From the IMG/VR virus record IMGVR_UViG_3300045256_000567: 64,000 bases of DNA. One strand, 5' to 3'. Under the pieces are notes generated by a model. It saw nothing but the letters and a program-made list of their open reading frames with translations. It was not told where the DNA came from and ran no database searches. Shown here in pieces: positions 302-56,334 of this stretch. The DNA is from a virus. The stretch's first letter is position 1. Each line of letters opens with the position of its first letter. The position numbers were made by a program, and so were the translations under genes.

Positions 302-1533
302 AACATATGTTTGCAGAAAGCCTACGCTTTTAAGCGTAGGATGAATGCAAACAAACGCTTTGAATATGGTATAATGTTAGCAGGTAGTAATGATAAAGTC
401 TTTCAAATACCGACTGTATCCAACCAAGCCTCAGATAAAGGATTTAGAAAAAACCTTGTTTCTGTGTCGTCAACTGTACAATACTGCTTTGGAACAAAGA
501 AGGGAATTGTACAAAAACTACAAAAAGTCTATCACCTACTATGAACAAGATAAACAACTACCCAAAATAAAAACAGAGCGTCCAGAATACAAGAATGTAA
601 ATGCACAGGTTCTTCAGGATGTGCTGAAAAGGGTAGACAAAGCCTACCAAGGGTTTTTTAGGCGTATTAAAACGGGTGAAACACCTGGTTTTCCAAGGTT
701 CAAAGGTGAAAATAGGTACGATAGTTTCACCTTTCCTCAAGCAAGCTTGACAGGAATCAAGATTCAAGAAGGCAAAAACAGAGTTTTGGTTCATAGAATT
801 GGTTCTATAAAATGCAAGTTTCATAGACCGCTTAAAGGTCAAATAAAGACAGCTTCTATAAAAAGGGATGGTGATGAATGGTATGTCATTTTCACCTGTA
901 TCACAGAACCAAAGAAACTTCCTGAAAACCAAGATGCAGTTGGAATAGACCTTGGCACTAATCCAAACTTCCTAACCACCTCTAACAGTGAAATGGTTCC
1001 TGCTCCTAGGTATTTCAAGAATTCTGAAGATAGGCTTGCCAAAGCACAGAAAATAGTTTCAAAAAGAAAACCTGGTAGCAACAGAAGGAACAAGGCTAAG
1101 AAATTGGTTGCTAAAATCCACAAGAAAATAGCAAACCAAAGAAAGGATTTTCATCACAAGGTAGCAAAAGACTTGGTGAATAAATATGGAACCATAGTAC
1201 ACGAAGACCTAGATATAAAACAACTCGCCCAAACTAGAACAGCTAAAGGTGTCCTAGATGCAGGTTGGGCGCAATTCCTAGCAATACTTGCCTACAAAGC
1301 GGAAGAAGCTGGTAGTCAAGTAATAAAAGTAGATCCAAAATACACAAGCCAAGATTGTCCCGTTTGCGGTAACCGAGAAAAACATCCGCTTTGGGTACGT
1401 ACCTATACCTGCGCTAAATGCAACACAACCCTTCATCGGGATATTGCAGCAGCACAAAATATCTTGGCTAAGGCTCGGACGGAGCCTTCGCTAAATGCGA
1501 GAAGCCCAATTCTTTAGAATTGGGAGTCGTCAC
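302..1533 (+). mobile_element. IS200/IS605-family tnpB-only (IS1341-like) element, copy 1
   Basis: TTAC (298-301), 15 nt, AAAG, then LE hairpin CCTACGCTTTTAAGCGTAGG (321-340). RE is GAAG, hairpin CCCAATTCTTTAGAATTGGG (1505-1524), AGTCG, TCAC (1533). Same architecture as IS608 ends. Confidence 0.92.
390..1517 (+). CDS. tnpB: RNA-guided endonuclease TnpB (copy 1)
   Basis: N-terminal YRLYPT; RuvC motifs GIDLG, VHEDL, HRDIAAAQN; CPVC/CAKC zinc finger. Confidence 0.96.
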   Translation: MIKSFKYRLYPTKPQIKDLEKTLFLCRQLYNTALEQRRELYKNYKKSITYYEQDKQLPKIKTERPEYKNVNAQVLQDVLKRVDKAYQGFFRRIKTGETPGFPRFKGENRYDSFTFPQASLTGIKIQEGKNRVLVHRIGSIKCKFHRPLKGQIKTASIKRDGDEWYVIFTCITEPKKLPENQDAVGIDLGTNPNFLTTSNSEMVPAPRYFKNSEDRLAKAQKIVSKRKPGSNRRNKAKKLVAKIHKKIANQRKDFHHKVAKDLVNKYGTIVHEDLDIKQLAQTRTAKGVLDAGWAQFLAILAYKAEEAGSQVIKVDPKYTSQDCPVCGNREKHPLWVRTYTCAKCNTTLHRDIAAAQNILAKARTEPSLNARSPIL

Positions 1534-2375: not shown

Positions 2376-2378
2376 AAA

Positions 2379-2416
2379 GTGACTACTCCCAATTCTAAAG
2401 AAGTGGGAGTCGTCAC
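2379..2416. repeat. 38-bp RE-RE palindrome P1 between convergent genes; probable bidirectional terminator
   Basis: GTGACTACTCCCAATTCTAAAGAAGTGGGAGTCGTCAC; supplies the TGA stop of 2413..3510. Confidence 0.88.
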
Positions 2417-3510
2417 AAAAACCAAAAACTTTCTATGCTATGATTAATAAGATTATATACAAATATATACCAACAAGAAGTTGCAATTGAAGCAAATTCA
2501 TATATACCATAGTTTGTATCTTTTCCTATAGAGTATGGAAAAATATTCTCCTCCAGAAAATAAGATAATTTTTTAGATTCTTCATTAAATTCAATATTTT
2601 GTTTATATATAAAACTTTTTGCATAAAATGCCATGAAATAGCCACGGAACCAAATTTCAGTATTTGTGTTTGGATATCCTAAATTACTATTTAATTTTTT
2701 ATATATTATTGGAGATAGGTGACTTTTAAAGTCCCTTTCTCTAAAATATTCTTCTAAATATTTTATATTTGAATATAAATAATTTTTGTTTACTCCAATT
2801 TTATTCAAAAATATAGAACCCATAGTGTATGTATTTATATTTCCAGAATTAGAGTTTAAAATTTCTACCAATTTTTCTCCATCCCAAAAATTATTTAATA
2901 TAGAAGATTTCAAAGAATTGGCTTTCGAAAGATATGTAGGATTTTGTGTTACTGCATACACACTTTTTAAAGAAAAGTATGTGTATATGCTATCGTCCAA
3001 TAAATAAGAATTATACACATAAGTATTATCAAAAGAATTGTTTACATATACCCCATACCCTCCTCTTACCAAACCATTTTGTTGAATTTCTGAAACTAAG
3101 TAATCTGCTACAGATTTTATAAAATCTTTATTTTCGTTAGTTTGAAGTTCGTTAATAAAATTATAACTAACAGAAAGAGCTTCTAACATCCATGCAACAG
3201 ACCAATTCCTTATATATTCGTCTGAATGAAATCCGTAACAATAATAATAAAAGTTAAATGAATTTTTTGAATTTAAAAGTTTTTTAGACGTATTAAAAAT
3301 ATTAATGATATTATTTTTATAATAATCATTTTGGGTTACACGATATTCTGACACTAAAGAGAGTAATGTTGATGCTAAATTATTTAAATTAGTTTTAACT
3401 TCCTGAATGGAGCTTGTATTTATAGGAGGCGTAGGTATTGAGGGTGGAGGGGGCGGCGGGCTTCCGCAAATACTTGAACATTGTTGATATGTAATTATGT
3501 GAAGACTCAT
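2413..3510 (-). CDS. Hypothetical protein with CSSIC-polyPro N-terminus and possible (alpha/alpha)6 glycosidase-like domain
   Basis: 365 aa. NPTYLSKANSLKSSILNNFWDG and EIWFRG segments are reminiscent of six-hairpin glycosidase-like folds (weak). Confidence 0.6.
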   Translation of the reverse strand: MSLHIITYQQCSSICGSPPPPPPSIPTPPINTSSIQEVKTNLNNLASTLLSLVSEYRVTQNDYYKNNIINIFNTSKKLLNSKNSFNFYYYCYGFHSDEYIRNWSVAWMLEALSVSYNFINELQTNENKDFIKSVADYLVSEIQQNGLVRGGYGVYVNNSFDNTYVYNSYLLDDSIYTYFSLKSVYAVTQNPTYLSKANSLKSSILNNFWDGEKLVEILNSNSGNINTYTMGSIFLNKIGVNKNYLYSNIKYLEEYFRERDFKSHLSPIIYKKLNSNLGYPNTNTEIWFRGYFMAFYAKSFIYKQNIEFNEESKKLSYFLEENIFPYSIGKDTNYGIYEFASIATSCWYIFVYNLINHSIESFWFL

Positions 3511-3748
3511 AATTTTAAAAAAATTAGGCTTCTCGTATTTAGCGAAGACTTTGTCAGCGCCTTAGTCAAAACATTTTGTGCTGCTGCAATATTCCGATGA
3601 GGGGTTGTATTGCATTTGGTGCAGGTATTGGTTGTATACAGACGGTACTTTAAAGACTTGATCATTACTAAACTATATTGTATCATATTCAGAGTGCGCG
3701 TTTTCATTAACACTACACCTAAAGGTGTAAGCTTTCTGCAAACGTGTT
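3499..3748 (-). mobile_element. Internally deleted tnpB mini-element M1 (LE, fused tnpB 5'/3' ends, degenerate RE)
   Basis: TTAT at 3752-3749, LE hairpin, MIKSLKYRLY fused to TCTKCNTTPHRNIAAAQN, RE ending GAGTCTTCAC at 3499. Confidence 0.9.
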
Positions 3749-6513: not shown

Positions 6514-6690
6514 AATACACGTTTGCAGAAAGCTTACACCTTTAGGTGTAGTGTTAATGAAAACGCGCACTCTGAATATGATACAATATAGTTTAGTAAT
6601 GATCAAGTCTTTCAAATACCGTCTGTATACAACCAATACCTGTGACAAAGCAGTGACGACTCCCAATTCTTTAGAATCTGGAGCCATCAC
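6514..6690 (+). mobile_element. Mini-element M2 (LE, tnpB stub, RE palindrome P2 at 6653-6690)
   Basis: TTAT at 6510-6513; LE nearly identical to M1; same CTGTATACAACCAATACCTG deletion junction; then GTGACGACTCCCAATTCTTTAGAATCTGGAGCCATCAC. Confidence 0.88.
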
Positions 6691-7057
6691 TTCTTAAAAA
6701 TTTATCTACCCCAAAAGAGTATTCTTTTTGTCTTTCTTCCTCATTTTTTATTTTATGCTGTACATAGGTGTCTACTATTACTGATATTTCATCTGTAAGA
6801 AATTTTAATTCAGATATTAAATCTCTATGCTCGCGAATTGACGTGGCATTATCAATTTTTTTTCTTATAGGATCTATAAAAAATAAATTTATATAATATA
6901 ATAAATCTTCTTCCACCTTCTCACTTCTTTTTTCTACTATATATGTATCAAAATAATATTCACATACATTAATTATTTTTTTCTCACACAAAAACTTGAT
7001 GTGATTAGAAATTGTAAAAATTATAGTTTTTATATCTGAATGATTAATTTCTAACAT
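6671..7057 (-). CDS. Hypothetical protein; C-terminus and stop encoded inside P2
   Basis: 128-aa ORF ending RSDGSRF* within the palindrome. Confidence 0.7.
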   Translation of the reverse strand: MLEINHSDIKTIIFTISNHIKFLCEKKIINVCEYYFDTYIVEKRSEKVEEDLLYYINLFFIDPIRKKIDNATSIREHRDLISELKFLTDEISVIVDTYVQHKIKNEEERQKEYSFGVDKFLRSDGSRF

Positions 7058-11738: not shown

Positions 11739-11790
11739 ACATATATAATAACATCAAATAAATGTTTTGGGAAGACCCCCCCTAATTTAC

Positions 11791-12033
11791 AGAACAGTTT
11801 GCAGAAAGCCTACACCTAAAGGTGTAGGATGAATGCAAAAATTGAAATTCTATGGTATAATAAACTTGTGCAAAAGAAGCACACCAAATCCTACAAAGCT
11901 GAAAATGCTGGTAGGTACTTGAATTATAAGATTCAAGGTAATCATCGGGAAAATAAGAAAATACCGATAATGGCTTGGACGGAGCCTTCGTTAATTACGA
12001 GAAGCCCAATTCTTTAGAATTGGGAGTCGTCAC
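11791..12033 (+). mobile_element. Non-coding mini-element M3 (LE, promoter, omegaRNA, RE)
   Basis: TTAC at 11787-11790, LE hairpin CCTACACCTAAAGGTGTAGG, RE ending TCAC at 12033. Confidence 0.9.
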
Positions 12034-12053
12034 AAAATAAAAATAAGTATGCC
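11868..12053 (+). ncRNA. Stand-alone TnpB omegaRNA 1 (scaffold ~11868-12033 plus guide AAAATAAAAATAAGTATGCC)
   Basis: TG-g-TATAAT at 11853-11861; seven successive hairpins; 3' 62 nt identical to the RE of tnpB copy 2; identical copy at 56079-56256. Confidence 0.75.
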
Positions 12054-12612
12054 TACTTATGTTATTTCTTATACAAGTTGTTCAAGCATTTGCACGCCTC
12101 CACCTCCGCCACCACCTGTTCCAGAAAGCTTTGAAATTTTATTAAATAAAGGTACTATTTATCTTAAAAATATCCCTCAGTCTCCACAAAAACAAATAAT
12201 AGAAGTGTTTTTTGAGTACCTAGATAAATATTTAGTAAAAAATATAGATACACAATCTGAAAACAATTATGTTATTTCTACAAAAATTGAAAACGCAAAT
12301 ATTTATTATTATGGTAACGTATCTATTACTTTTTACGAAGATATAAGTGATCTATGTAATTTTTCTATAAATAAACATTATATAAATCAAGATGACATAT
12401 ATCCATCATATATTAGTGTAGAAATACAATCAATAGATAATGATGCTGAACTGGGATATATTTATATATTATATTCAAGTAATACTAAATCTGAAAAATA
12501 TATTATTCATATACAAAATAATATCTCAGAGTTAATTAATAAAAGTATACTTATATATGATGAAGATGCTGATAATATAGATATAAGCGCATTCTGTGTA
12601 AATACAATTTAA
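12049..12612 (+). CDS. Hypothetical protein with CSSIC-polyPro N-terminus
   Basis: MPTYVISYTSCSSICTPPPPPPP, similar to the N-terminus of 2413..3510. Confidence 0.75.
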   Translation: MPTYVISYTSCSSICTPPPPPPPVPESFEILLNKGTIYLKNIPQSPQKQIIEVFFEYLDKYLVKNIDTQSENNYVISTKIENANIYYYGNVSITFYEDISDLCNFSINKHYINQDDIYPSYISVEIQSIDNDAELGYIYILYSSNTKSEKYIIHIQNNISELINKSILIYDEDADNIDISAFCVNTI

Positions 12613-12622
12613 AGGAGCTTTT

Positions 12623-13438
12623 GTGGAAAATATACAAAAATTAAAAAATTTAAAAAATTCTATAAGAAATTTTTATGAAAAAAACGGATTATTACCGCAA
12701 GAAATAATAAATATAACTCAAACAAATGATTTAGAAAAATCTTTAAGTATACTAGAAAATAAAATAAAAACAGACAATTTAATATTAAATATATTTTCTG
12801 GATTGTACGAACAATTATTTAGCACAAATCTTTCATCTAACCAAAACACTACAAAATTTATTCATAGTGATAATAATAAATTTTATAGAATTGATGAAAT
12901 ACAAACTAATAATTTAGACGATTCTATATTTTACAATATTACCATTAATGTTAGTTTTACTAATTTTTCCATTAATGACATAGATTATTTATCATTAGGT
13001 ATAAGTTTTGATGGCAAGAATTTTTACTCAAAATTATTTTTTAACAGCCCTCAAAATTTACTAAACATTTCTGCTGGACCCAAAGAAAATAGATTACAAT
13101 CTATCGTATGTGTAATCAAAGAGAATATTTCAAGTTTACCAATTATTTTTTTAAATAATAATAGATCTTTTACATATTTTTCTAATGAAGTACCATTATT
13201 TTCATATAATGGAAATATAAAAAACAACTACTCCCAAGTACAATTAGATCAAAATAATCAGCCATTAAATATATTAATGGGCGTTTTAGTAAACACAAAT
13301 AAAAATACTAATATTTTGCTTTCTTCTGATCTTAAAAAAACATCCTCTTCAGATTTAGAAAATAGAATTTCAATTAGTGTATATAAAGTTTTTAAATCCT
13401 TCTCTAATAGAATACGTGTCAATTCCGCAATCATTTAA
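12623..13438 (+). CDS. Hypothetical (possibly virion) protein
   Basis: 271-aa ORF, AAGGAG SD. Confidence 0.7.
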   Translation: MENIQKLKNLKNSIRNFYEKNGLLPQEIINITQTNDLEKSLSILENKIKTDNLILNIFSGLYEQLFSTNLSSNQNTTKFIHSDNNKFYRIDEIQTNNLDDSIFYNITINVSFTNFSINDIDYLSLGISFDGKNFYSKLFFNSPQNLLNISAGPKENRLQSIVCVIKENISSLPIIFLNNNRSFTYFSNEVPLFSYNGNIKNNYSQVQLDQNNQPLNILMGVLVNTNKNTNILLSSDLKKTSSSDLENRISISVYKVFKSFSNRIRVNSAII

Positions 13439-14845
13439 ATTTTCTATTCTGTCTATCTTTAGTTTGAAGATATCTACAAAAATTGATAGAGAGTCTTTTA
13501 GAATATTTGTAAAGTCTTTAGGAAGGCTATATCGAAAATAACTTTTAAGATCTGATAATTCAAATACTGTTCCTAAGGAAATCTTTTCTTCTCCATAATT
13601 AATCCATCTTCCTTTAGCTATTAATACTAATACATTTTTAGATTTTAAGTACTTAAATACCTTAGAAATGTCTCTTTTGCTTATACCGCGCTTACTTAGC
13701 GCATTATACCCCATTACAAATCTCTTACCAAAAATAACAGATTTATATACGATATCAGACAAAATTGTTTCAATAGATTTTTTTGATGCATCTATTTCTT
13801 CTTTTTTTATTGATGATATAATTTGTATCGCTTTCTGATAATTTTCGTTGGTAACAAATAAAAATTTAAAAGAATACTCTGGTAAATATTCATAAAGAGA
13901 TGAGAATGAAATTTTTTCTCCTTTTTTTATTCTTGAAAAAGTTCTAGATATAACGTTTACTCTACTTTTAAATTCTTCATCTTCACTTATTAAAATCTTA
14001 ACAATATCCAAAAACTTAGAAAAACTAACTTTCATTGCAGCCGCCAGGCCAGAAAATGAATAAATTATATTATTTCTATTTCCTTTATAGTAGTATTTCT
14101 TAAGATCATTTGCTATTTCAAGTAAAAAATTTTCTCTTTGCTCTTCTGTAACAGGAATTAATTCCAATTTTTCATAGGATTCATTATCTATAGATAAATT
14201 AATTCTAGACAAATACTGAACAGAATGCTGCATTAATGGAATTCTTTTCAAAACATTGTCTAAGGTGCTTTCGTTATTTGCATATCTAAAAAACTTTTGG
14301 GTAAAAAAATTAAGTTTCTTCTTAAATGATACTTTTTCATTTTTATGATAGAAATTGTAATTAACTACCCCACCATATCCATAGTAATCAATGCTATCAC
14401 TAAAAATACATATTTGCTTCCCAGGACTACTTGGAACAAACTCAACCTTACAATTAAAATAATTTTCAGCAAGCTTTGCCATTATATCAGAAAAAGCATG
14501 CATTTTAGAAAATAGAACCCTATCTGTAAATGGAATGTATATATGAGCCCTACCACCAAGCGATCTATTTGAATAAGAATTTATATTAAAAATATCGTGT
14601 AAAGCACGCTGAAACATAACAACACGTTGAGGATCATATGCACAATCAACATCTAAAATAGACAAATAAGAGAACCCGCCTTCACATATAGAAGAAGAGC
14701 TTAAAACAACCGATCCAGAAATATAGGAAAACATAAGCCTACTACTATACTCAGTAGATCTAAAAGATTTAAAGGAAGACGGCGAATACACCGCCCTATC
14801 ACCTTTTTTATACCCTAATCTAGACTCTATAAAAGAAAAAGACAC
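13370..14845 (-). CDS. AEP-superfamily primase/replication initiator-like protein with PriCT-like and probable wHTH domains
   Basis: ILDVD (motif I), SLGGRAHIY (motif II), GNRNNIIY (PriCT-like); GGAGG SD. Confidence 0.7.
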   Translation of the reverse strand: MSFSFIESRLGYKKGDRAVYSPSSFKSFRSTEYSSRLMFSYISGSVVLSSSSICEGGFSYLSILDVDCAYDPQRVVMFQRALHDIFNINSYSNRSLGGRAHIYIPFTDRVLFSKMHAFSDIMAKLAENYFNCKVEFVPSSPGKQICIFSDSIDYYGYGGVVNYNFYHKNEKVSFKKKLNFFTQKFFRYANNESTLDNVLKRIPLMQHSVQYLSRINLSIDNESYEKLELIPVTEEQRENFLLEIANDLKKYYYKGNRNNIIYSFSGLAAAMKVSFSKFLDIVKILISEDEEFKSRVNVISRTFSRIKKGEKISFSSLYEYLPEYSFKFLFVTNENYQKAIQIISSIKKEEIDASKKSIETILSDIVYKSVIFGKRFVMGYNALSKRGISKRDISKVFKYLKSKNVLVLIAKGRWINYGEEKISLGTVFELSDLKSYFRYSLPKDFTNILKDSLSIFVDIFKLKIDRIENLNDCGIDTYSIREGFKNFIYTN

Positions 14846-20311: not shown

Positions 20312-20333
20312 AATTTTTTTAATATTTGTTAAA

Positions 20334-20440
20334 GTGACGACTCCCAATTCTTTAGAATTGGGAGTTGTCACTTCATATACAAGAAATTTAGTTGCATTCA
20401 TCCTACGCATAAAGGCGTAGGTTTTCTGCAAATCAATGTT
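20334..20440 (-). mobile_element. Minimal 107-bp LE+RE element M4 (RE palindrome P3 at 20334-20371)
   Basis: TTAT at 20444-20441, LE hairpin CCTACGCCTTTATGCGTAGG, palindromic RE ending GTCGTCAC at 20334. Confidence 0.88.
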
Positions 20441-28475: not shown

Positions 28476-29703
28476 GTGACGACTCCCAATTCTAAAGAAT
28501 TGGGCTTCTCGTAATTAACGAAGGCTCCGTCCAAGCCTTAGCCAAGATATTTTGTGCCGCTGCAATATCCCGATGAAGGGTTGTATTGCATTTTGCACAG
28601 GTATAGGTACGTATCCAAAGAGGATGCTTTTCTCGATTACCGCAAACAGGACAGTCTTGGCTTGTGTATTTTGGGTCTACTTTTATTACTTGCCTACCAG
28701 CTTCTTCCGCTTTGTAGGCAAGTATTGCTAGGAATTGCGCCCAACCTGCATCTAGGACACCTTTAGCTGTTCTAGTTTGGGCGAGTTGTTTTATATCTAG
28801 GTCTTCGTGTACTATGGTTCCATATTTATTCACCAAGTCTTTTGCTACCTTGTGATGAAAATCCTTTCTTTGGTTTGCTATTTTCTTGTGGATTTTAGCA
28901 ACCAGTCTTTTAGCTTTGTTCCTTCTGTTGCTACCAGGTTTTCTTTTTGAAACTATTTTCTGTGCTTTGGAGAGTGTTTTTTCATACTTCTTGAAATACC
29001 TAGGAGCAGGAACCATTTCACTGTCAGAGGTGGTTAGGAAGTTTGGGTTAGTACCAAGGTCTATTCCAACTGCATCTTGGTTTACAGGAAGTTTTTTTGG
29101 TTCTGTGATACAGGTGAAAATTATATACCATTCATCATTCTCCCTTTTTATAGAAGCTGTCTTTATTTGACCTTCAAGCGGTCTGTGAAACTTGCATTTG
29201 ATAGAACCAATCTTATGCACCAAAACTCTGTTTTTACCTTCTTGAATCTTGATTCCTGTTACGTTTGCTTGAGGAAAAGTAAAGCTGTCATATCTTCCTT
29301 CGCCTTTGAACCTTGGATATCCTGGTGTTTCACCTTTTTTGATACGCCTAAAAAACCCTTGGTAGGCTTTGTCTACCCTTTTCAATACATCCTGAAGAAC
29401 CTGTGCATTTACATTCTTGTATTCTGGACGCTCTTCCTTCAAACTAGGTAGTTGGTTAGCTTGTTCATAGTAACCAATGCTTTTCTTGTGGGTTTTGTAT
29501 AATTCCTTTCTTTTTTCCAAAGCAGTATTGTACAGTTGACGACACAGAAACAAGGTTTTCTCTAAATCCTTGATCTGAGGCTTGGTTGGATACAGACGGT
29601 ATTTGAAGGACTTGATCATTACTAAACTATATTGTATCATATTAATAGTACGCGTTTGCATTCATCCTACACCTAAAGGTGTGGGTTTTCTGCAAACTGT
29701 TCT
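28476..29703 (-). mobile_element. IS200/IS605-family tnpB-only element, copy 2
   Basis: TTAT at 29707-29704, LE hairpin, tnpB, RE ending TCAC at 28476. Confidence 0.92.
28492..29619 (-). CDS. tnpB: TnpB (copy 2)
   Basis: Same motifs as copy 1; start set to MIKSF. Confidence 0.96.
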   Translation of the reverse strand: MIKSFKYRLYPTKPQIKDLEKTLFLCRQLYNTALEKRKELYKTHKKSIGYYEQANQLPSLKEERPEYKNVNAQVLQDVLKRVDKAYQGFFRRIKKGETPGYPRFKGEGRYDSFTFPQANVTGIKIQEGKNRVLVHKIGSIKCKFHRPLEGQIKTASIKRENDEWYIIFTCITEPKKLPVNQDAVGIDLGTNPNFLTTSDSEMVPAPRYFKKYEKTLSKAQKIVSKRKPGSNRRNKAKRLVAKIHKKIANQRKDFHHKVAKDLVNKYGTIVHEDLDIKQLAQTRTAKGVLDAGWAQFLAILAYKAEEAGRQVIKVDPKYTSQDCPVCGNREKHPLWIRTYTCAKCNTTLHRDIAAAQNILAKAWTEPSLITRSPIL

Positions 29704-50751: not shown

Positions 50752-50780
50752 ATTATAGCACGTTTGCAGAAAACCTACGA
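50752..50780 (-). promoter_or_regulatory. Half LE forming a TG-c-TATAAT promoter; also the guide region of tnpB copy 3
   Basis: TTAT-AGCACGTTTGCAGAAAACCTACGA directly abutting the RE at 50781. Confidence 0.75.
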
Positions 50781-51950
50781 GTGACGACTCCCAATTCTAA
50801 AGAATTGGGCTTCTCGCAAGAAGCGAAGGCTCCGTCCGAGCCTTAGCCAAGATATTTTGTGCCGCTGCAATATCCCGATGAAGGGTTGTATTGCATTTGG
50901 CGCAGGTATAGGTACGTATCCAAAGTGGGTGTTTTTCTCTGTTACCACAAACAGGACAATCTTGGCTTGTGTATTTTGGGTCTACTTTTATTACTTGCCT
51001 ACCAGCTTCCTCCGCTTTGTAGGCAAGTATTGCTAGGAACTGTGCCCAACCTGCATCTAGGATACCTTTAGCTGTTCTAGTTTGAGCAAGTTGTTTTATA
51101 TCTAGGTCTTCGTGTACTATGGTTCCATATTTATTCACCAAGTCCTTTGCTACCTTGTGATGAAAATCCTTTCTTTGGTTTGCTATTTTTCGATGTACCT
51201 TGGCAACTAGTTTCTTAGCCTTGGTTCTTCTGTTGCTACCAGGTTTTCTTTTTGAAACTATTTGTTGTGCTTTGGCAAGCCTATCTTCAGACTTCTTGAA
51301 ATACCTAGGAGCAGGAACCATTTCACTGTCAGAGGTGGTTAGGAAGTTTGGGTTAGTACCAAGGTCTATTCCAACTGCATCTTGGTTTACAGGAAGTTTT
51401 TTTGGTTCTGTGATACAGGTGAAAATGACATACCATTCATCATTCTCCCTTTTTATAGAAGCTGTCTTTATTTGACCTTCAAGCGGTCTGTGAAACTTGC
51501 ATTTGATAGAACCAATCTTATGAACCAAAACTCTGTTTTTACCTTCTTGAATCTTGATTCCTGTTTTGCTTACTTGAGTAAAGGTGAAGCTGTCATACCT
51601 ATTTTCACCCTTGAATCTTGGGAAACCAGGTGTTTCACCTTTCTTTATACGCCTAAAAAAGCCTTGGTAGGCTTTATCTAACCTTTGTAGCACATCCTGA
51701 AGAACTTGACTATGTATATTCTTGTATTCTGGAAACTCTTCCTTTAGTTTAGGAAGTTGACTATTTTGCTCGTAACGGCTAATGGTCTTTTTGGAACTTT
51801 TGTACACGTCACGTCTTTTTTCCAAAGCAGTATTGTACAATTGACGACACAGAAACAAGGTTTTCTCTAAATCCTTGATCTGAGGCTTGGTTGGATACAG
51901 TCGGTACTTGAAAGACTTGATCATTGCTGACCTTTATTATACCATATTCA
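50781..51950 (-). mobile_element. tnpB element copy 3: intact RE, no canonical LE
   Basis: RE ends at 50781; upstream TGAATATGGTATAAT promoter as in copy 1; only an LE hairpin arm remains, at 52081-52093. Confidence 0.8.
50797..51924 (-). CDS. tnpB: TnpB (copy 3)
   Basis: All RuvC and zinc-finger motifs intact. Confidence 0.96.
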   Translation of the reverse strand: MIKSFKYRLYPTKPQIKDLEKTLFLCRQLYNTALEKRRDVYKSSKKTISRYEQNSQLPKLKEEFPEYKNIHSQVLQDVLQRLDKAYQGFFRRIKKGETPGFPRFKGENRYDSFTFTQVSKTGIKIQEGKNRVLVHKIGSIKCKFHRPLEGQIKTASIKRENDEWYVIFTCITEPKKLPVNQDAVGIDLGTNPNFLTTSDSEMVPAPRYFKKSEDRLAKAQQIVSKRKPGSNRRTKAKKLVAKVHRKIANQRKDFHHKVAKDLVNKYGTIVHEDLDIKQLAQTRTAKGILDAGWAQFLAILAYKAEEAGRQVIKVDPKYTSQDCPVCGNREKHPLWIRTYTCAKCNTTLHRDIAAAQNILAKARTEPSLLARSPIL

Positions 51951-52093
51951 GGAATGTCACACTATTCAATCGCTTGTACATTATACCAAAAATTTATTAC
52001 CATTGTATTATGTGAGGGAGTCCATGTATCCCCGCTTTGAAAAGCGGGGAATTATAGCTCCCCCACACCCCCTCAATTTTTTAAAGGTGTAGG

Positions 52094-52131
52094 GTTACAA
52101 TTCCCAGTTCTTTAGAACTGGGAATCGTCAC
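52094..52131. repeat. RE palindrome P4 with compensatory substitutions
   Basis: GTTACAATTCCCAGTTCTTTAGAACTGGGAATCGTCAC; supplies the TGA of 52128..55253. Confidence 0.85.
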
Positions 52132-55100
52132 GGGTTTGGATGCAAAACAAGCACATAAATTTCATTGCTTATTGAATAGGGAAGGTTTAGCATTCTATAA
52201 CTTTGCGATGGCGTGTCAATTATAAGTTGATAAGGAATATATAAATTTTGTATAGAAGTATCTAAAATTCTTAGATTATAACAATAAGAGGTAGAAGTTA
52301 GAAAAACAGGGCGTATAAATTCATATGTACTTGAATCCAAAGGATCGTTTCTAGTATCAAAACCAGAGGATTTATTAATAATTAAGTTTGCGTCGCCATC
52401 TGCATTTAAAGCTATTATGTAATAAGTTTTTCCAGATTCAAATTTATATCCATGCGGGAAAAGTTTTTTATCACTAATAAATAGTGAATTATCGCTATTT
52501 ATATTATAGTTATTAATATCTAAAAGCAATTCATTAATTACGGCATTTTTATTACTTATTAAGTAATTAGTAACATTTAGACTAAAACTTGAAAATTTAT
52601 TTATATAATATTGATCATTAGAAATGACTTCTTCATTGTAAAGAAAATTCTCTATACATATATCTAAATGTTGAGATAAAAAAGAAAAGTAGCAAGGCAA
52701 ATAATAATTAAAATCAAAACTACTGTTTAACAAGTTTTTAAACGAAAAATTGTATGTATATATGAACGTTGCCGGAATTAAATCCTGTAAATCTTGGTTT
52801 TCAGGGTTGATAACATCAATATTAAAAACATATGGTCTAAAAACATGTACGGTACTTCTTGGAGATTTATCGGGGCTAGAAGAAAATTCGGCTAGAGATA
52901 CCCGTCCATTAAAATAGTTTAATATTTGACTAGTTGAGAGGTAATCGTTATTATTTAATTTAATATTTAAATTTAAATTTTTATCTTTAAAAACAATTGG
53001 TAAATACTCAACAAAAATAAAATCAAATACGGGGTAGGATAAAGAGGCATCATTTGTTGCCTGTGTTTTTGAAAAACTTTCACCTTTGAATTTTATTCTT
53101 ACAGAAAGCGGATCGTAAACATATGTGTCCTCGCTTAAGTATGTAGTGTATCCTCCTACGTCAATAAATGAAAAATATTCACTGTTTAATATATAAGGTT
53201 TAATATTGTTATTAACGTAATTAGACAATGGTAAATCTAAAGGAGGTATAAAATCAACTATATTATTATTTATTGATATAATATCAGTTTTTGAAGTAAA
53301 CTCATTATCAGAATTAATATTTGATGGTCCAAAATATGAGAATAATGAAAAAAATCTTGTAGGTGAATATTTGTTGCCATAATTAAATATATCAGAAAGA
53401 AATTGTAAAAACTCATTTAAGGCATTTGAGTTATTTTTTAAGGACACCAATGGAACGTGTGTAAAAACATTACGTACTATTGACAAATCCTGGTGAGATG
53501 GTAGCTGAGTTAAAAACATCATATCTTCAGATTGCCATGATGAGGAAGATACATCAACGCCTGGGTACGTTTGTGTTAAATAATTTAATGTTAAAGAATT
53601 TAAACTAGATATGAAATCATTAAAATTATTAAAATCTGGAATATCCAAAGTAAACTCTCTGGGAGTTTGATCATACGCGGGAACATACGAATATAAAATA
53701 AATCTGTTTGGGTTGTTTTTGTCGTTATTATTCTTATACAATACCACAACCGGTTTGTTGTTACTTGATAGACTTGTCAGATCAGAAAAATAAAAATTGT
53801 TTAAAACCCAAGCCTTTAAATTGCTGTAGGTATTTTTATTAAAATAATATTTTTTATCATTTTGAGCAAACTCATCCTCAACGAAAAGCTTTAGTGCTTT
53901 ATATACAAACAATCTCCCAAAATTTATAGATGGAAGACTTATAGAACCGGAATAAGATCCTAAGCTACTAGAATATGTACCTAAAGAAAGTATACTATTT
54001 ATAGTACTTGTAGAAAAATTACTTATTACATTATATATTGCGGGATAAAAATTATCTAAAAAATTTTTTGCAGTTAGGAAAATTCCCGAGTCTATTTGTG
54101 GATTTAAAAATTCAAATATACCCAATTTATTTAATGGATTTTGGTTATTTATTGTATTAAAAGAATATGTAAAATTTCCCGAAAAAGATAAATAATCTTT
54201 ATCAAAATGAAAGCAAACCTTTACTGGAACATTAGAAGTTTTTACATCAATTGTGCAATAAGTATCATTATTATTAGAAAATACAGCGCCATTATCAGTA
54301 TAAAAATCCTTAAATCCATTTTGTCCGCCTGTATTAAACCCAAAATTATTTACTTCTGGGGAGTATCCGAAAAATTTATTAGTTCCTATTGGTACAGATT
54401 CCATATTTTCAGCCGCAGTAATATTCTTAGAAAAGTTTAATGATGTTAGCGGACCTTCTGGATTTATTTTGTAAAATATTTCTTTCCCCGGAATTAATGA
54501 TAAAAAATAAAAATCATTTAAGTTATTACTATATTTACTATTCTCGTAATAAAAATTACTTATAGAAAAATTATTAATAGTAGTTTCATAAATATTATCT
54601 GAATTTGCTTTATAATTGCCGTCGTAGGTAAAAGGTAAGTATAAACTATATATGTAATATTTTGGATATATATTTTGTCCTATGCTTGGAGATACAAAAT
54701 TATAAGTTGGATCAATAGAATCATTTCCATATACAACAACAAAAATATCTATAGTAAGTATTCCTGCAAAAGAAAAACCCACATTAAACAAGTTTGTATT
54801 GTAAGTACTATCAAAAGAGCTTTCTGCCACGCCTATGGATTTATTTATATCTTGAATATTATAATTAATAGAAAAGCCGTTGTAGTAATTGTCTACAGGA
54901 TGATTATCCGGCAATTTGTCAAGTATTAAATTAACTAAACTTAAATCTACACCGGTATTACTGGGATCAATAAAAATGTACTTATTATTAATTTCATCAA
55001 AAATGGCAAATTTAGGAAGAACTTTTTCTTTAGTTAAATTGTTTAATAAAAAAGAAGAAACAACTTGCTTTAAAGTACTTTTTGTAGTTATATCAACAAA

Positions 55101-55359: not shown

Positions 55360-56067
55360 ATGGAAAAGAAAATTAAATTAGAACTTAAAAAGAAACTTAT
55401 AGATCTAGTATCTCAATTTGAAGTTTCACGAGATTGGGGTAGGGTTGCTGGAAATTTTGATGGACAAATTTTGTCTTACGGTCCTTTACAGTGGAATATT
55501 GGACAAAGCACTCTTTTTTACGTTTTAAAAAGGATTCCTCAAGAAGTTTTGGAAAAATATCTTGGTTCTGATTTTGTTAAAAGTTTGTCCTCAAATTCTT
55601 CATTGAGGTATTTTGTTTTACACAATATCTTAGGCAAAAATGGAAATGTTCTTCCTGGTTGGTCTAAAAAATTTTCTGATCTAGCTAAAGAGCCTTCTGT
55701 TATATCCGCATTTGTAGTTTCTGCGGAGCCTTACTTTATAAAATCTAACGATTGTTTAAATGAACTTGGTTTTACTACAGAAAGAGGAGCAGCTTTATGT
55801 TTTGACATAACTGTACAAAATGGTGGTCTAAGAAAAGATCATAAAATTTTATATACTAGGTATATAAGCACTAAAAATCCGCAAAATGAGTGGGAAAAAT
55901 ATAAAATACTAGCAAATGTAATTGCTGAATTAGCTAACCCACAGTGGAAAAATGATGTATTAAATAGAAAACTTACCATTGCACTTGGTAAGGGTTCTGT
56001 GCATGGAGTAAATATAGATTTAGAAAAAGATTTTGATATTTCTTATAATCGAACCTGGTACATGTGA
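55360..56067 (+). CDS. Probable endolysin (lysozyme-like)
   Basis: GNFDGQILSYGPLQWNIGQSTL, FDITVQNGG, DVLNRK, G.VHG motifs typical of putative phage/bacterial peptidoglycan hydrolases. Confidence 0.7.
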   Translation: MEKKIKLELKKKLIDLVSQFEVSRDWGRVAGNFDGQILSYGPLQWNIGQSTLFYVLKRIPQEVLEKYLGSDFVKSLSSNSSLRYFVLHNILGKNGNVLPGWSKKFSDLAKEPSVISAFVVSAEPYFIKSNDCLNELGFTTERGAALCFDITVQNGGLRKDHKILYTRYISTKNPQNEWEKYKILANVIAELANPQWKNDVLNRKLTIALGKGSVHGVNIDLEKDFDISYNRTWYM

Positions 56068-56244
56068 CGACACCGCACGTGACGACTCCCAATTCTAAAG
56101 AATTGGGCTTCTCGTAATTAACGAAGGCTCCGTCCAAGCCATTATCGGTATTTTCTTATTTTCCCGATGATTACCTTGAATCTTATAATTCAAGTACCTA
56201 CCAGCATTTTCAGCTTTGTAGGATTTGGTGTGCTTCTTTTGCAC
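56059..56244 (-). ncRNA. Stand-alone TnpB omegaRNA 2 (scaffold to 56079 plus guide GTGCGGTGTCGTCACATGTA)
   Basis: 56079-56256 is the reverse complement of 11856-12033; driven by TG-c-TATAAT. Confidence 0.75.
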
Positions 56245-56250
56245 AAGTTT

Positions 56251-56334
56251 ATTATAGCACAGTTTGCAGAAAGCCTACTCCTAAAATCACAGGCTTTCTG
56301 CAAACTTGTATTGTAAGAACATATAGTGTATACT
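56251..56334. promoter_or_regulatory. Back-to-back LE pair forming a divergent promoter
   Basis: TTAT-AGCACAGTTTGCAGAAAGCCT...AGGCTTTCTGCAAACTTGTATT-GTAA; rightward TTGTAT-N17-TATACT. Confidence 0.72.

What the first reader, a model, noticed from the sequence alone, without database searches (positions are those of the whole stretch)
11856..12053. Stand-alone, non-coding omegaRNA gene with its own promoter (copy 1)
Seen: TG-g-TATAAT followed by about 166 nt with stacked helices (11868-82, 11890-915, 11918-37, 11941-71, 11972-86, 11988-12000, 12005-24) ending in TCAC. Two helices contain tnpB-like words (CCTACAAAGC..GCTGGTAGG, CATCGGGA) but the rest is rebuilt, so it is not a simple deletion. 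The TCGT/ACGA stem covaries with TCGC/GCGA in tnpB copies 1 and 3. Inference: a scaffold freed from the tnpB reading frame that supplies guides in trans, and a natural compact guide RNA of possible biotechnological use.
Basis: partly seen in the sequence, partly recalled or inferred. Interest (0 to 1): 0.88.

Follow-up and report, generated by a model that had tools for sequence, protein, structure and literature searches.

The report
Protein-less TnpB guide-RNA mini-transposon in phage
The flagged stretch is a roughly 245-base, gene-less miniature of the phage's own TnpB "jumping gene" that keeps a promoter and the complete guide-RNA scaffold. It most likely borrows the TnpB nuclease made elsewhere on the phage, and elements of this kind are already described.

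Summary
A TGGTATAAT promoter (11853-11861) is followed by about 166 nt of stacked hairpins that end in TCAC (12030-12033). The fold is far better than shuffled sequence (z -4.6).

It is the inside of a non-autonomous IS200/IS605 element spanning 11791-12033. From left to right it has a TTAC target, a left-end hairpin, the tnpB promoter, a remodelled leader, the omegaRNA core and the right end.

- The last 62-64 nt are 100% identical to the 3' end of tnpB copy 2. They hold every helix of the family's core, including a pseudoknot that covaries across relatives.
- The leader keeps hairpin H1, which also covaries.
- A second copy (56079-56256, minus strand) is 100% identical from the -10 box to TCAC.

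The window is a relative of Thermus phage phiYS40. The closest TnpBs are in Thermus and Meiothermus. The same promoter-plus-core minis occur in Thermus phage phiLo, in Thermaceae chromosomes and in IMG/VR viral contigs.

Protein-less IS605 elements (PATEs) that encode omegaRNAs for TnpB in trans were described by Meers et al. 2023. This scan has also met them on other DNA. So this is a clear new member of a known kind.

The parts
11787..11790 (+). TTAC target/TAM-like motif abutting the left end
   Evidence: TTAC or TTAT sits 6-7 nt before GTTTGCAG in all left-end copies aligned.
11791..11849 (+). Left end (LE) with subterminal hairpin CCTACACC-TAAA-GGTGTAGG (11809-11828)
   Evidence: Repeat family D2 has 8 LE copies. 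This LE is 91% identical to the LE of tnpB2 (I16).
11853..11861 (+). Extended -10 promoter TGGTATAAT, the same as the tnpB1/tnpB3 promoter; predicted transcript start near 11868
   Evidence: This is a consensus match only; no RNA data.
11868..11882 (+). Small 5' hairpin GTGC-loop-GCAC, not found in tnpB
   Evidence: Predicted to melt at 70 C.
11890..11915 (+). Hairpin H1 (CCTAC AA AGC, 7-nt loop, GCT G GTAGG), homologous to tnpB 1291-1316
   Evidence: Nucleotide identity between phage and Thermus copies is 93%, against 62% for neighbouring coding sequence. The basal stem covaries in 19 sequences, with 0 of 500 shuffles as high.
11918..11968 (+). Two leader hairpins (CTTGAAT/ATTCAAG; ATCGG/CCGAT) that replace about 125 nt of zinc-finger coding sequence
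   Evidence: Only two identical copies exist, so there is no covariation test.
11972..12033 (+). omegaRNA core: stem 1 (11972-86, loop GGACG), stem 3 (11988-12000), stem 4 = right-end hairpin with TTTA loop (12001-28), pseudoknot tail CGTC (12028-31), end TCAC
   Evidence: 100% identical to the tnpB2 3' end (I8). Model R1 scores it 65.2 bits against 67-69 for the tnpB copies. The helices and the pseudoknot covary.
12034..12053 (+). Predicted guide (flank after TCAC); it overlaps the start of ORF 12049-12612
   Evidence: Position follows the TnpB rule. No TAM-flanked match elsewhere in the window.
56079..56312 (-). Second copy. 56079-56256 is 100% identical to 11856-12033. Its left end is a chimera with a second, opposed LE that begins at TTAT inside the complement of the -10 box.
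   Evidence: (I3).
28492..29661 (-). tnpB copy 2, the likely trans partner (its omegaRNA core is identical to the mini's); the other copies are 390-1517 (+) and 50797-51924 (-)
   Evidence: Pfam OrfB_IS605, Cas12f1-like_TNB and HTH. The D/E/D residues and the zinc finger are intact in all three. E about 1e-56 to ISDra2 TnpB.
3499..3747 (-). Third, decayed mini: LE, promoter and tnpB codons 1-16 fused to the last ~130 nt, with a degenerate core
   Evidence: R1 scores it 30 bits; alignment.

Best explanation
The region 11791-12033 is a non-autonomous, protein-less derivative of the phage's IS605-type tnpB element (a PATE-like mini-transposon). It arose by in-frame internal deletions. These left the left end, the tnpB promoter, hairpin H1, a remodelled leader and the complete omegaRNA core with the right end. 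Inferred mechanism, in four steps. (1) The extended -10 promoter starts an RNA near 11868 that runs through the scaffold into the flank. (2) A TnpB made by one of the three resident genes binds the core and trims the 5' part; TnpB2 is the best candidate because its own core is identical. (3) The complex uses the 16-20 nt after TCAC as its guide. (4) It cuts any copy of the phage genome (sister or co-infecting relative) in which TTAC is directly joined to that flank, meaning a genome without the element. Recombinational repair then restores or spreads the mini. Shown here: the anatomy, the identity of the core, the covariation of the core and of H1, and the recurrence of such minis. Inferred: transcription, TnpB loading and cleavage.
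For: Anatomy: LE hairpin plus TTAC, the tnpB-type promoter, and an RE ending in TCAC. The core is 100% identical to the tnpB2 core and scores like the tnpB copies with model R1. The core structure is real. All nested helices and a pseudoknot covary over 44 sequences, and the pseudoknot was not part of the model. The pseudoknot pairs loop GACG with tail CGUC, with variants GACA/UGUC, GAUU/AAUC, GACU/AGUC and GAAG/CUUC. Cells paired are 95.6% against 71% shuffled, 0 of 500 shuffles. The layout matches the solved ISDra2 omegaRNA: a stem-1 loop pseudoknotted to nt -5..-3 and a UUUA tetraloop in stem 4 (PMC10097598). TnpB2 is an ISDra2 TnpB relative. All three TnpBs keep their catalytic residues. 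Two copies are 100% identical from the -10 box to TCAC, while the tnpB genes differ by 8-10%. Independent minis of the same family keep promoter plus core. There are four in Thermus phage phiLo, including one with the promoter 7 nt from stem 1. There are 13 of 23 cores in five Thermaceae genomes, and several in IMG/VR contigs. H1 is kept and covaries in minis. PATEs encoding omegaRNAs for trans-acting TnpB are described (PMC10055086).
Against: No empty-site allele was found, because ORF187 next to it is an orphan. There is no tnpA in the window, so present-day mobility depends on a host TnpA. The left end of mini2 is broken, and a third mini has decayed, so relics do occur. The leader hairpins are marginal at 65-70 C. 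With only two identical copies, the hairpins specific to this leader cannot be tested by covariation.
Confidence: 0.62

Rival explanations
1. Promoter and 5'-leader module. The mini mainly serves, or has been co-opted, to drive the two orphan genes downstream (12049-12612 and 12623-13438). In this reading the scaffold is only a structured leader.
For: The RE ends 15 nt before the ATG at 12049, and no terminator follows. The decayed mini at 3499-3747 has the start codon of ORF 2413-3510 inside its RE, and that protein shares an N-terminal Cys-Ser-Ser-Ile-Cys/poly-Pro module with ORF187. Mini1 lies at a synteny break next to the conserved PDDEXK-ClpP-TK-primase block.
Against: Mini2 points at the 3' end of a convergent gene, so it drives nothing obvious. 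The core is kept letter-perfect, which a mere leader does not need. The two roles are not exclusive.
Confidence: 0.2
2. Inert relic. It is a recent deletion product of a tnpB element with no present function, kept identical only because the duplication is young.
For: No tnpA in the window. Mini2 has lost its proper LE. Another mini and several solo ends are decaying. 100% identity can simply mean recency.
Against: The same design (promoter plus H1 and/or core) recurs independently in phiLo, in Thermaceae genomes and in IMG/VR contigs. These copies have covarying stems in non-coding context, which shows selection on the RNA in this class of element.
Confidence: 0.13
3. Small protein gene. The 62-codon frame 11829-12017, or a 49-codon leaderless frame from GTG 11868, encodes a TnpB C-terminal remnant peptide.
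For: The frame is open and keeps the tnpB frame (SYKAENAGR ... AWTEPSLITRSPIL). GTG 11868 coincides with the predicted transcript start.
Against: No family match. ATG 11829 lies upstream of the -10 box and is absent from mini2. Related minis have no such frame. The open frame is explained by descent from tnpB.
Confidence: 0.03

Closest known systems
PATE-like minimal IS200/IS605 elements encoding omegaRNAs (Geobacillus stearothermophilus; Meers et al. 2023, PMC10055086)
   Same: No protein gene; LE and RE like the full-length elements; carries an omegaRNA that must use TnpB from another element.
   Different: Here it is on a phiYS40-like Thermus-type phage. It has a remodelled leader that keeps hairpin H1 and a very short (62-nt) core. 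One of the two copies has a chimeric left end.
ISDra2 TnpB omegaRNA (Deinococcus radiodurans; Nakagawa et al. 2023, PMC10097598)
   Same: Related TnpB (E about 1e-56). Same order of parts: hairpin whose loop pseudoknots with nt -6..-3, stem 3, and a right-end stem 4 with a UUUA-type tetraloop. The upstream part overlaps tnpB.
   Different: The core is 62 nt against 116 nt. Stem 3 is cut to 4-5 bp in all phage copies, like the engineered Trim2 deletion. No clear stem 2 or triple helix. The RNA here is not inside a tnpB gene.
Stand-alone promoter-plus-core minis of the same IS family in Thermus phage phiLo (MH673673) and Thermaceae chromosomes (found here)
   Same: LE, TGnTATAAT-type promoter, omegaRNA core and TCAC end, with no tnpB.
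   Different: GC-rich versions with other leaders: promoter fused 7 nt from stem 1, a ~60-nt leader hairpin, or a ~200-nt leader. I found no description of these in the papers searched.

Membership tests
IS200/IS605 non-autonomous element (PATE-like) | Left end with subterminal hairpin next to a short conserved target motif | tested here: met
   CCTACACC-TAAA-GGTGTAGG at 11809-11828. TTAC at 11787-11790. The same layout appears in the other LE copies.
IS200/IS605 non-autonomous element (PATE-like) | Right end with subterminal hairpin and conserved terminal motif | tested here: met
   CCCAATTC-TTTA-GAATTGGG followed by GAGTCGTCAC, identical to the tnpB copies and conserved in Thermus relatives.
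IS200/IS605 non-autonomous element (PATE-like) | No transposase or other protein gene inside | tested here: met
   The only frame is a 62-codon tnpB remnant with no family match. There is no tnpA-like sequence in the window.
IS200/IS605 non-autonomous element (PATE-like) | No terminal inverted repeats and no target duplication | tested here: met
   The flanks ...TAATTTAC and AAAATAAAAATA... share no repeat. LE and RE differ in sequence.
IS200/IS605 non-autonomous element (PATE-like) | Mobility: several copies, and insertion polymorphism with a scarless empty site | tested here: inconclusive
   Two 100% identical copies lie at unrelated sites. No empty-site allele could be found: ORF187 is an orphan, and relatives differ at this junction.
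IS200/IS605 non-autonomous element (PATE-like) | A cognate Y1 transposase (TnpA) available in trans | tested here: inconclusive
   None in the window. The same IS family has tnpA (Pfam Y1_Tnp) next to tnpB in Calidithermus (L112). The host of this phage is not known.
TnpB omegaRNA | Scaffold ending in the right-end stem-loop within 10 nt of the guide | tested here: met
   Stem 4 ends 5 nt before TCAC. This is the feature named as general by Nety et al. (PMC10278001).
TnpB omegaRNA | Pseudoknot between an upstream loop and the nucleotides just before the guide | tested here: met
   Loop GACG (11978-81) pairs with CGTC (12028-31). Three of the four pairs show double changes across the family.
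TnpB omegaRNA | Cognate TnpB with intact RuvC in the same genome | tested here: met
   Three tnpB genes keep D, E, D and the zinc finger. The mini's core is 100% identical to that of tnpB2.
TnpB omegaRNA | Transcribed and processed to a discrete RNA | not testable with these tools
   Only a promoter consensus is available.
TnpB omegaRNA | Bound by TnpB and guides TAM-dependent DNA cleavage | not testable with these tools
   No tool here models a protein-RNA complex or an assay.
Rfam RNA families | Match to a curated covariance model | tested here: not met
   No family reaches its threshold on the window or on related minis.

The most novel reading that the evidence does not exclude
Hairpin H1 may be an unrecognised functional 5' module of the omegaRNA in this TnpB clade, for example for loading, 5' processing, stability, or control of TnpB activity. 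Its apex is AAAGC-N7-GCUGG, which inside tnpB encodes YKAE(E/N)AG. That would explain why independent protein-less minis in different phages keep it directly behind their promoters, with freely covarying basal stems. In the phage, such minis could also act as homing cassettes that drag neighbouring orphan genes into co-infecting relatives.
Probability: 0.3. Interest if true: 0.6.

Novelty: new member of a known kind. Interest (0 to 1): 0.38.

Why it matters
It adds a well-documented case of guide RNA and nuclease being unlinked in a TnpB system, on a large phage of thermophiles. In that setting, cutting of insert-free genomes could work like phage homing.

It also gives natural evidence for the minimal functional omegaRNA unit in an ISDra2-related clade. 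The core is 62-93 nt, and in some relatives the promoter is fused directly to it.

It points to a conserved upstream hairpin (H1) whose role is unknown. Both points could be useful for thermostable compact editors, but only after biochemical tests.

Tried and rejected
- **No whole genome.** None is held for the window, and the records behind metagenome loci cannot be searched.
- **DNA searches that found nothing.** Searches with the mini found nothing in plasmids or known phages. Exact-pattern scans found nothing in IMG/VR or in species genomes.
- **Metagenome scan.** The single scan gave six hits that are chance matches in GC-rich coding DNA.
- **Empty site.** ORF187 has no relatives, so no empty site could be recovered that way.
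- **Synteny.** I first assumed that ORF 13370-14734 is the helicase that precedes the PDDEXK gene in relatives. It is not. I therefore claim only that the mini lies at a variable junction.
- **Long-range helix.** The helix GCCAAGAT/ATCTTGGC predicted in full-length copies shows double changes. All of them are AT-to-GC shifts between phage and Thermus at synonymous sites, so I do not count it as support.
- **Motif scan.** The IMG/VR scan for the H1 apex alone returned mostly unrelated AT-rich hits. Only hits with a core nearby were used.
- **Rfam.** No family matches.

Full report
**What is at the coordinates**

The sequence has TGGTATAAT at 11853-11861. About 166 nt of stacked hairpins follow and end in TCAC at 12030-12033.

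Its energy is -49.6 kcal/mol, with z -4.63 and 0 of 200 shuffles as good. The 104-nt leader alone (z -4.9) and the 62-nt 3' part alone (z -3.5) also fold better than shuffles. TGnTATAAT occurs 17 times in the window against 8.2 expected.

**Context**

The window is AT-rich (28.8% GC). It encodes a portal, a tail fibre, a ribonucleotide reductase and other phage proteins. ORF 55360-56067 is 58% identical to a protein of Thermus phage phiYS40/TMA. The same locus lies on a JGI metagenome contig and is identical there.

Three intact tnpB genes are present, at 390-1517 (+), 28492-29661 (-) and 50797-51924 (-).
- They carry the Pfam domains OrfB_IS605, Cas12f1-like_TNB and HTH.
- They are 90-91% identical to each other and keep the RuvC D/E/D residues and the zinc finger.
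- They are related to the solved ISDra2 TnpB (E about 1e-56).
- Their closest relatives (60-67% identity) are in Thermus, Meiothermus and Calidithermus and in Thermus phages TSP4, phiLo and T72.

**Anatomy of the flagged element**

Repeat analysis and alignments show that the stretch sits between transposon ends, in this order:
- TTAC at 11787-11790.
- A left end with the hairpin CCTACACC-TAAA-GGTGTAGG, 91% identical to the left end of tnpB2.
- The promoter also used by tnpB.
- A leader.
- The last 62-64 nt, which are 100% identical to the 3' end of tnpB2 (I8) and include the right-end hairpin and GAGTCGTCAC.

The leader keeps two pieces of tnpB in the original reading frame: SYKAENAGR, then HRE, then AWTEPSLITRSPIL.

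The junction before H1 (ACCAAATCCTACAAAGC) resembles both the tnpB start (ATCAAGTCCTTCAAATAC) and the H1 arm of tnpB. This suggests an in-frame microhomology deletion.

About 125 nt that encode the zinc finger are replaced by two short hairpins. So 'not a simple deletion' is fair, but descent from tnpB is clear.

The 62-codon frame has no family match. Its ATG lies upstream of the -10 box and is missing from the second copy.

**The 3' part is a complete omegaRNA core**

I aligned the 3' ends of the window's tnpB genes with Thermus-group relatives, built a covariance model (R1) and searched all loci. The core has four parts:
- Stem 1: GGCUY-GGACG-GAGCC.
- Stem 3: UUCG..CGAG. It is about 20 bp in Thermus and cut to 4-5 bp in every phage copy.
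- Stem 4: the right-end hairpin with a UUUA loop.
- A pseudoknot between the stem-1 loop (GACG) and the four nucleotides at -6..-3 (CGUC).

The pseudoknot was not in the model, yet it covaries. Variants are GACA/UGUC (L016, L047, L059), GAUU/AAUC (L019), GACU/AGUC (L046), GAAG/CUUC (L029) and GGCUU/AAGUC (L022, L023).

Over 44 distinct sequences, 95.6% of cells pair against 71.4% after shuffling. The covariation score is 0.447 against 0.116, with 0 of 500 shuffles as high and slid controls at 0.04-0.07.

This is the layout of the solved ISDra2 omegaRNA. There the stem-1 loop pairs with nt -5..-3, stem 4 has a UUUA tetraloop, stem 3b is deletable and the 5' region is dispensable (PMC10097598).

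The mini scores 65.2 bits with R1 and the tnpB copies score 67-69.

**Hairpin H1**

The CCTAC..GTAGG helix is not a chance leftover. Between the AT-rich phage copies and the GC-rich Thermus copies it is 93% identical at the nucleotide level. The coding stretch between it and stem 1 is only 62% identical.

Scans of IMG/VR found two groups:
- Protein-less minis with promoter, then H1, then a linker, then the core: L130, L191, L239, L244, L198/L209 and L212.
- Full-length tnpB genes with the same apex, which there encodes KAENAG.

In an ungapped alignment of 19 sequences anchored on the apex, the basal stem covaries. Pairs include CCUAC/GUAGG, GUAGC/GCUGC, CUCAUC/GAUGAG, GGCGGU/AUCGCC and AUUGAC/GUCAAU. 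Cells paired are 83% against 67%. The covariation score is 0.433 against 0.155, with 0 of 500 shuffles as high and slid controls at 0.06-0.15.

The role of H1 is unknown. Nety et al. report 5' processing by TnpB and an inhibitory mRNA region in another TnpB. That is a lead, not a match.

**Second and third copies**

The stretch 56079-56256 (minus strand) is 100% identical to 11856-12033. Identity stops exactly at TTAT, the complement of the -10 box. There an oppositely oriented left-end 5' half begins (TTAT, AGCACA, GTTTGCAG...).

The result is a palindromic chimera of two left-end halves. This copy has probably lost the ability to be mobilised, but it still has a TGCTATAAT promoter.

A third mini at 3499-3747 (minus strand) is a cleaner deletion: tnpB codons 1-16 joined to the last ~130 nt. 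Its core is degenerate (R1 30 bits).

**The same design elsewhere**

- Model R1 finds seven cores in Thermus phage phiLo, but only three lie behind tnpB. One of the other four has the promoter 7 nt from stem 1, and another has a 60-nt leader hairpin.
- In five Thermaceae genomes, 13 of 23 cores have no TnpB upstream, and the same two designs appear plus a ~200-nt-leader type.
- Some host elements carry tnpA (Y1_Tnp) beside tnpB. The window has none.

Promoter-to-core fusions suggest that the core alone is a sufficient unit. That is an inference.

**Function**

The guides (20 nt after TCAC) of both minis have no TAM-flanked match elsewhere in the window. This fits the standard model, in which the guide matches the element's own flank and TnpB cuts the insert-free allele (Meers et al.).

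Mini1 ends 15 nt before the ATG of an orphan gene, with no terminator in between. Read-through expression of ORF187/ORF271 is therefore a real second role. Mini2 faces the end of a convergent gene, so that role is not general.

At 65-70 C the small leader hairpins are predicted to melt, while stems 1 and 4 persist.

**Comparison and verdict**

Protein-less IS605 elements that encode omegaRNAs needing TnpB in trans are described (PMC10055086). Earlier notes of this scan report the same kind on other DNA and further copies in this genome; I did not verify those. No Rfam family covers it.

This is a clear, well-supported new member of a known kind. Two modest additions are the very short pseudoknotted core and the conserved hairpin H1.

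Noticed in passing
window 2378-2422, 6652-6696, 20333-20377, 52093-52137: Solo, symmetrised right-end hairpins (GTGACGACTCCCAATTC-TTTA-GAATTGGGAGTCGTCAC and variants). Both arms carry the terminal motif. No scaffold or left end is attached. They score weakly with model R1.
   Followed up: partly
window 50761-50780 (minus strand) and 51945-51990: The predicted guide of tnpB copy 3 is the half of a left-end hairpin. It matches other left ends with 1-3 mismatches, none preceded by TTAC or TTAT. This copy has no left-end hairpin upstream of its promoter, so it looks immobile.
   Followed up: partly
window 12049-12125 and 3440-3510 (minus strand): Two otherwise unrelated ORFs start at or just after a right end. 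They share an N-terminal Tyr..Cys-Ser-Ser-Ile-Cys..poly-Pro module. One start codon lies inside the decayed right end.
   Followed up: partly
L015 2429-2746, L017 2427-2708, L037 2426-2718, L126: A recurrent ~25-nt hairpin insert (GGTCAGCCC..GGGCTA..CTTG type) sits in loops of the omegaRNA of Thermus/Meiothermus copies: the H1 loop, the stem-1 loop, and between stems 3 and 4. It occurs even where this is tnpB coding sequence.
   Followed up: no
L113, L114, L117, L119, L120, L122, L123, L125; also L128, L136: Thermaceae and viral minis in which a conserved ~200-nt structured leader precedes the omegaRNA core. No Rfam match and no TnpB upstream.
   Followed up: no
L097, L100, L103, L104 (Thermus phage phiLo MH673673): Four omegaRNA cores without tnpB in a cultured Thermus phage, none annotated. 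L100 has the promoter 7 nt from stem 1.
   Followed up: partly
window 56262-56305: A 14-bp perfect inverted repeat (GTTTGCAGAAAGCC ... GGCTTTCTGCAAAC) made of two left-end 5' halves joined head to head. Both halves have a TTAC or TTAT 6-7 nt outside.
   Followed up: partly
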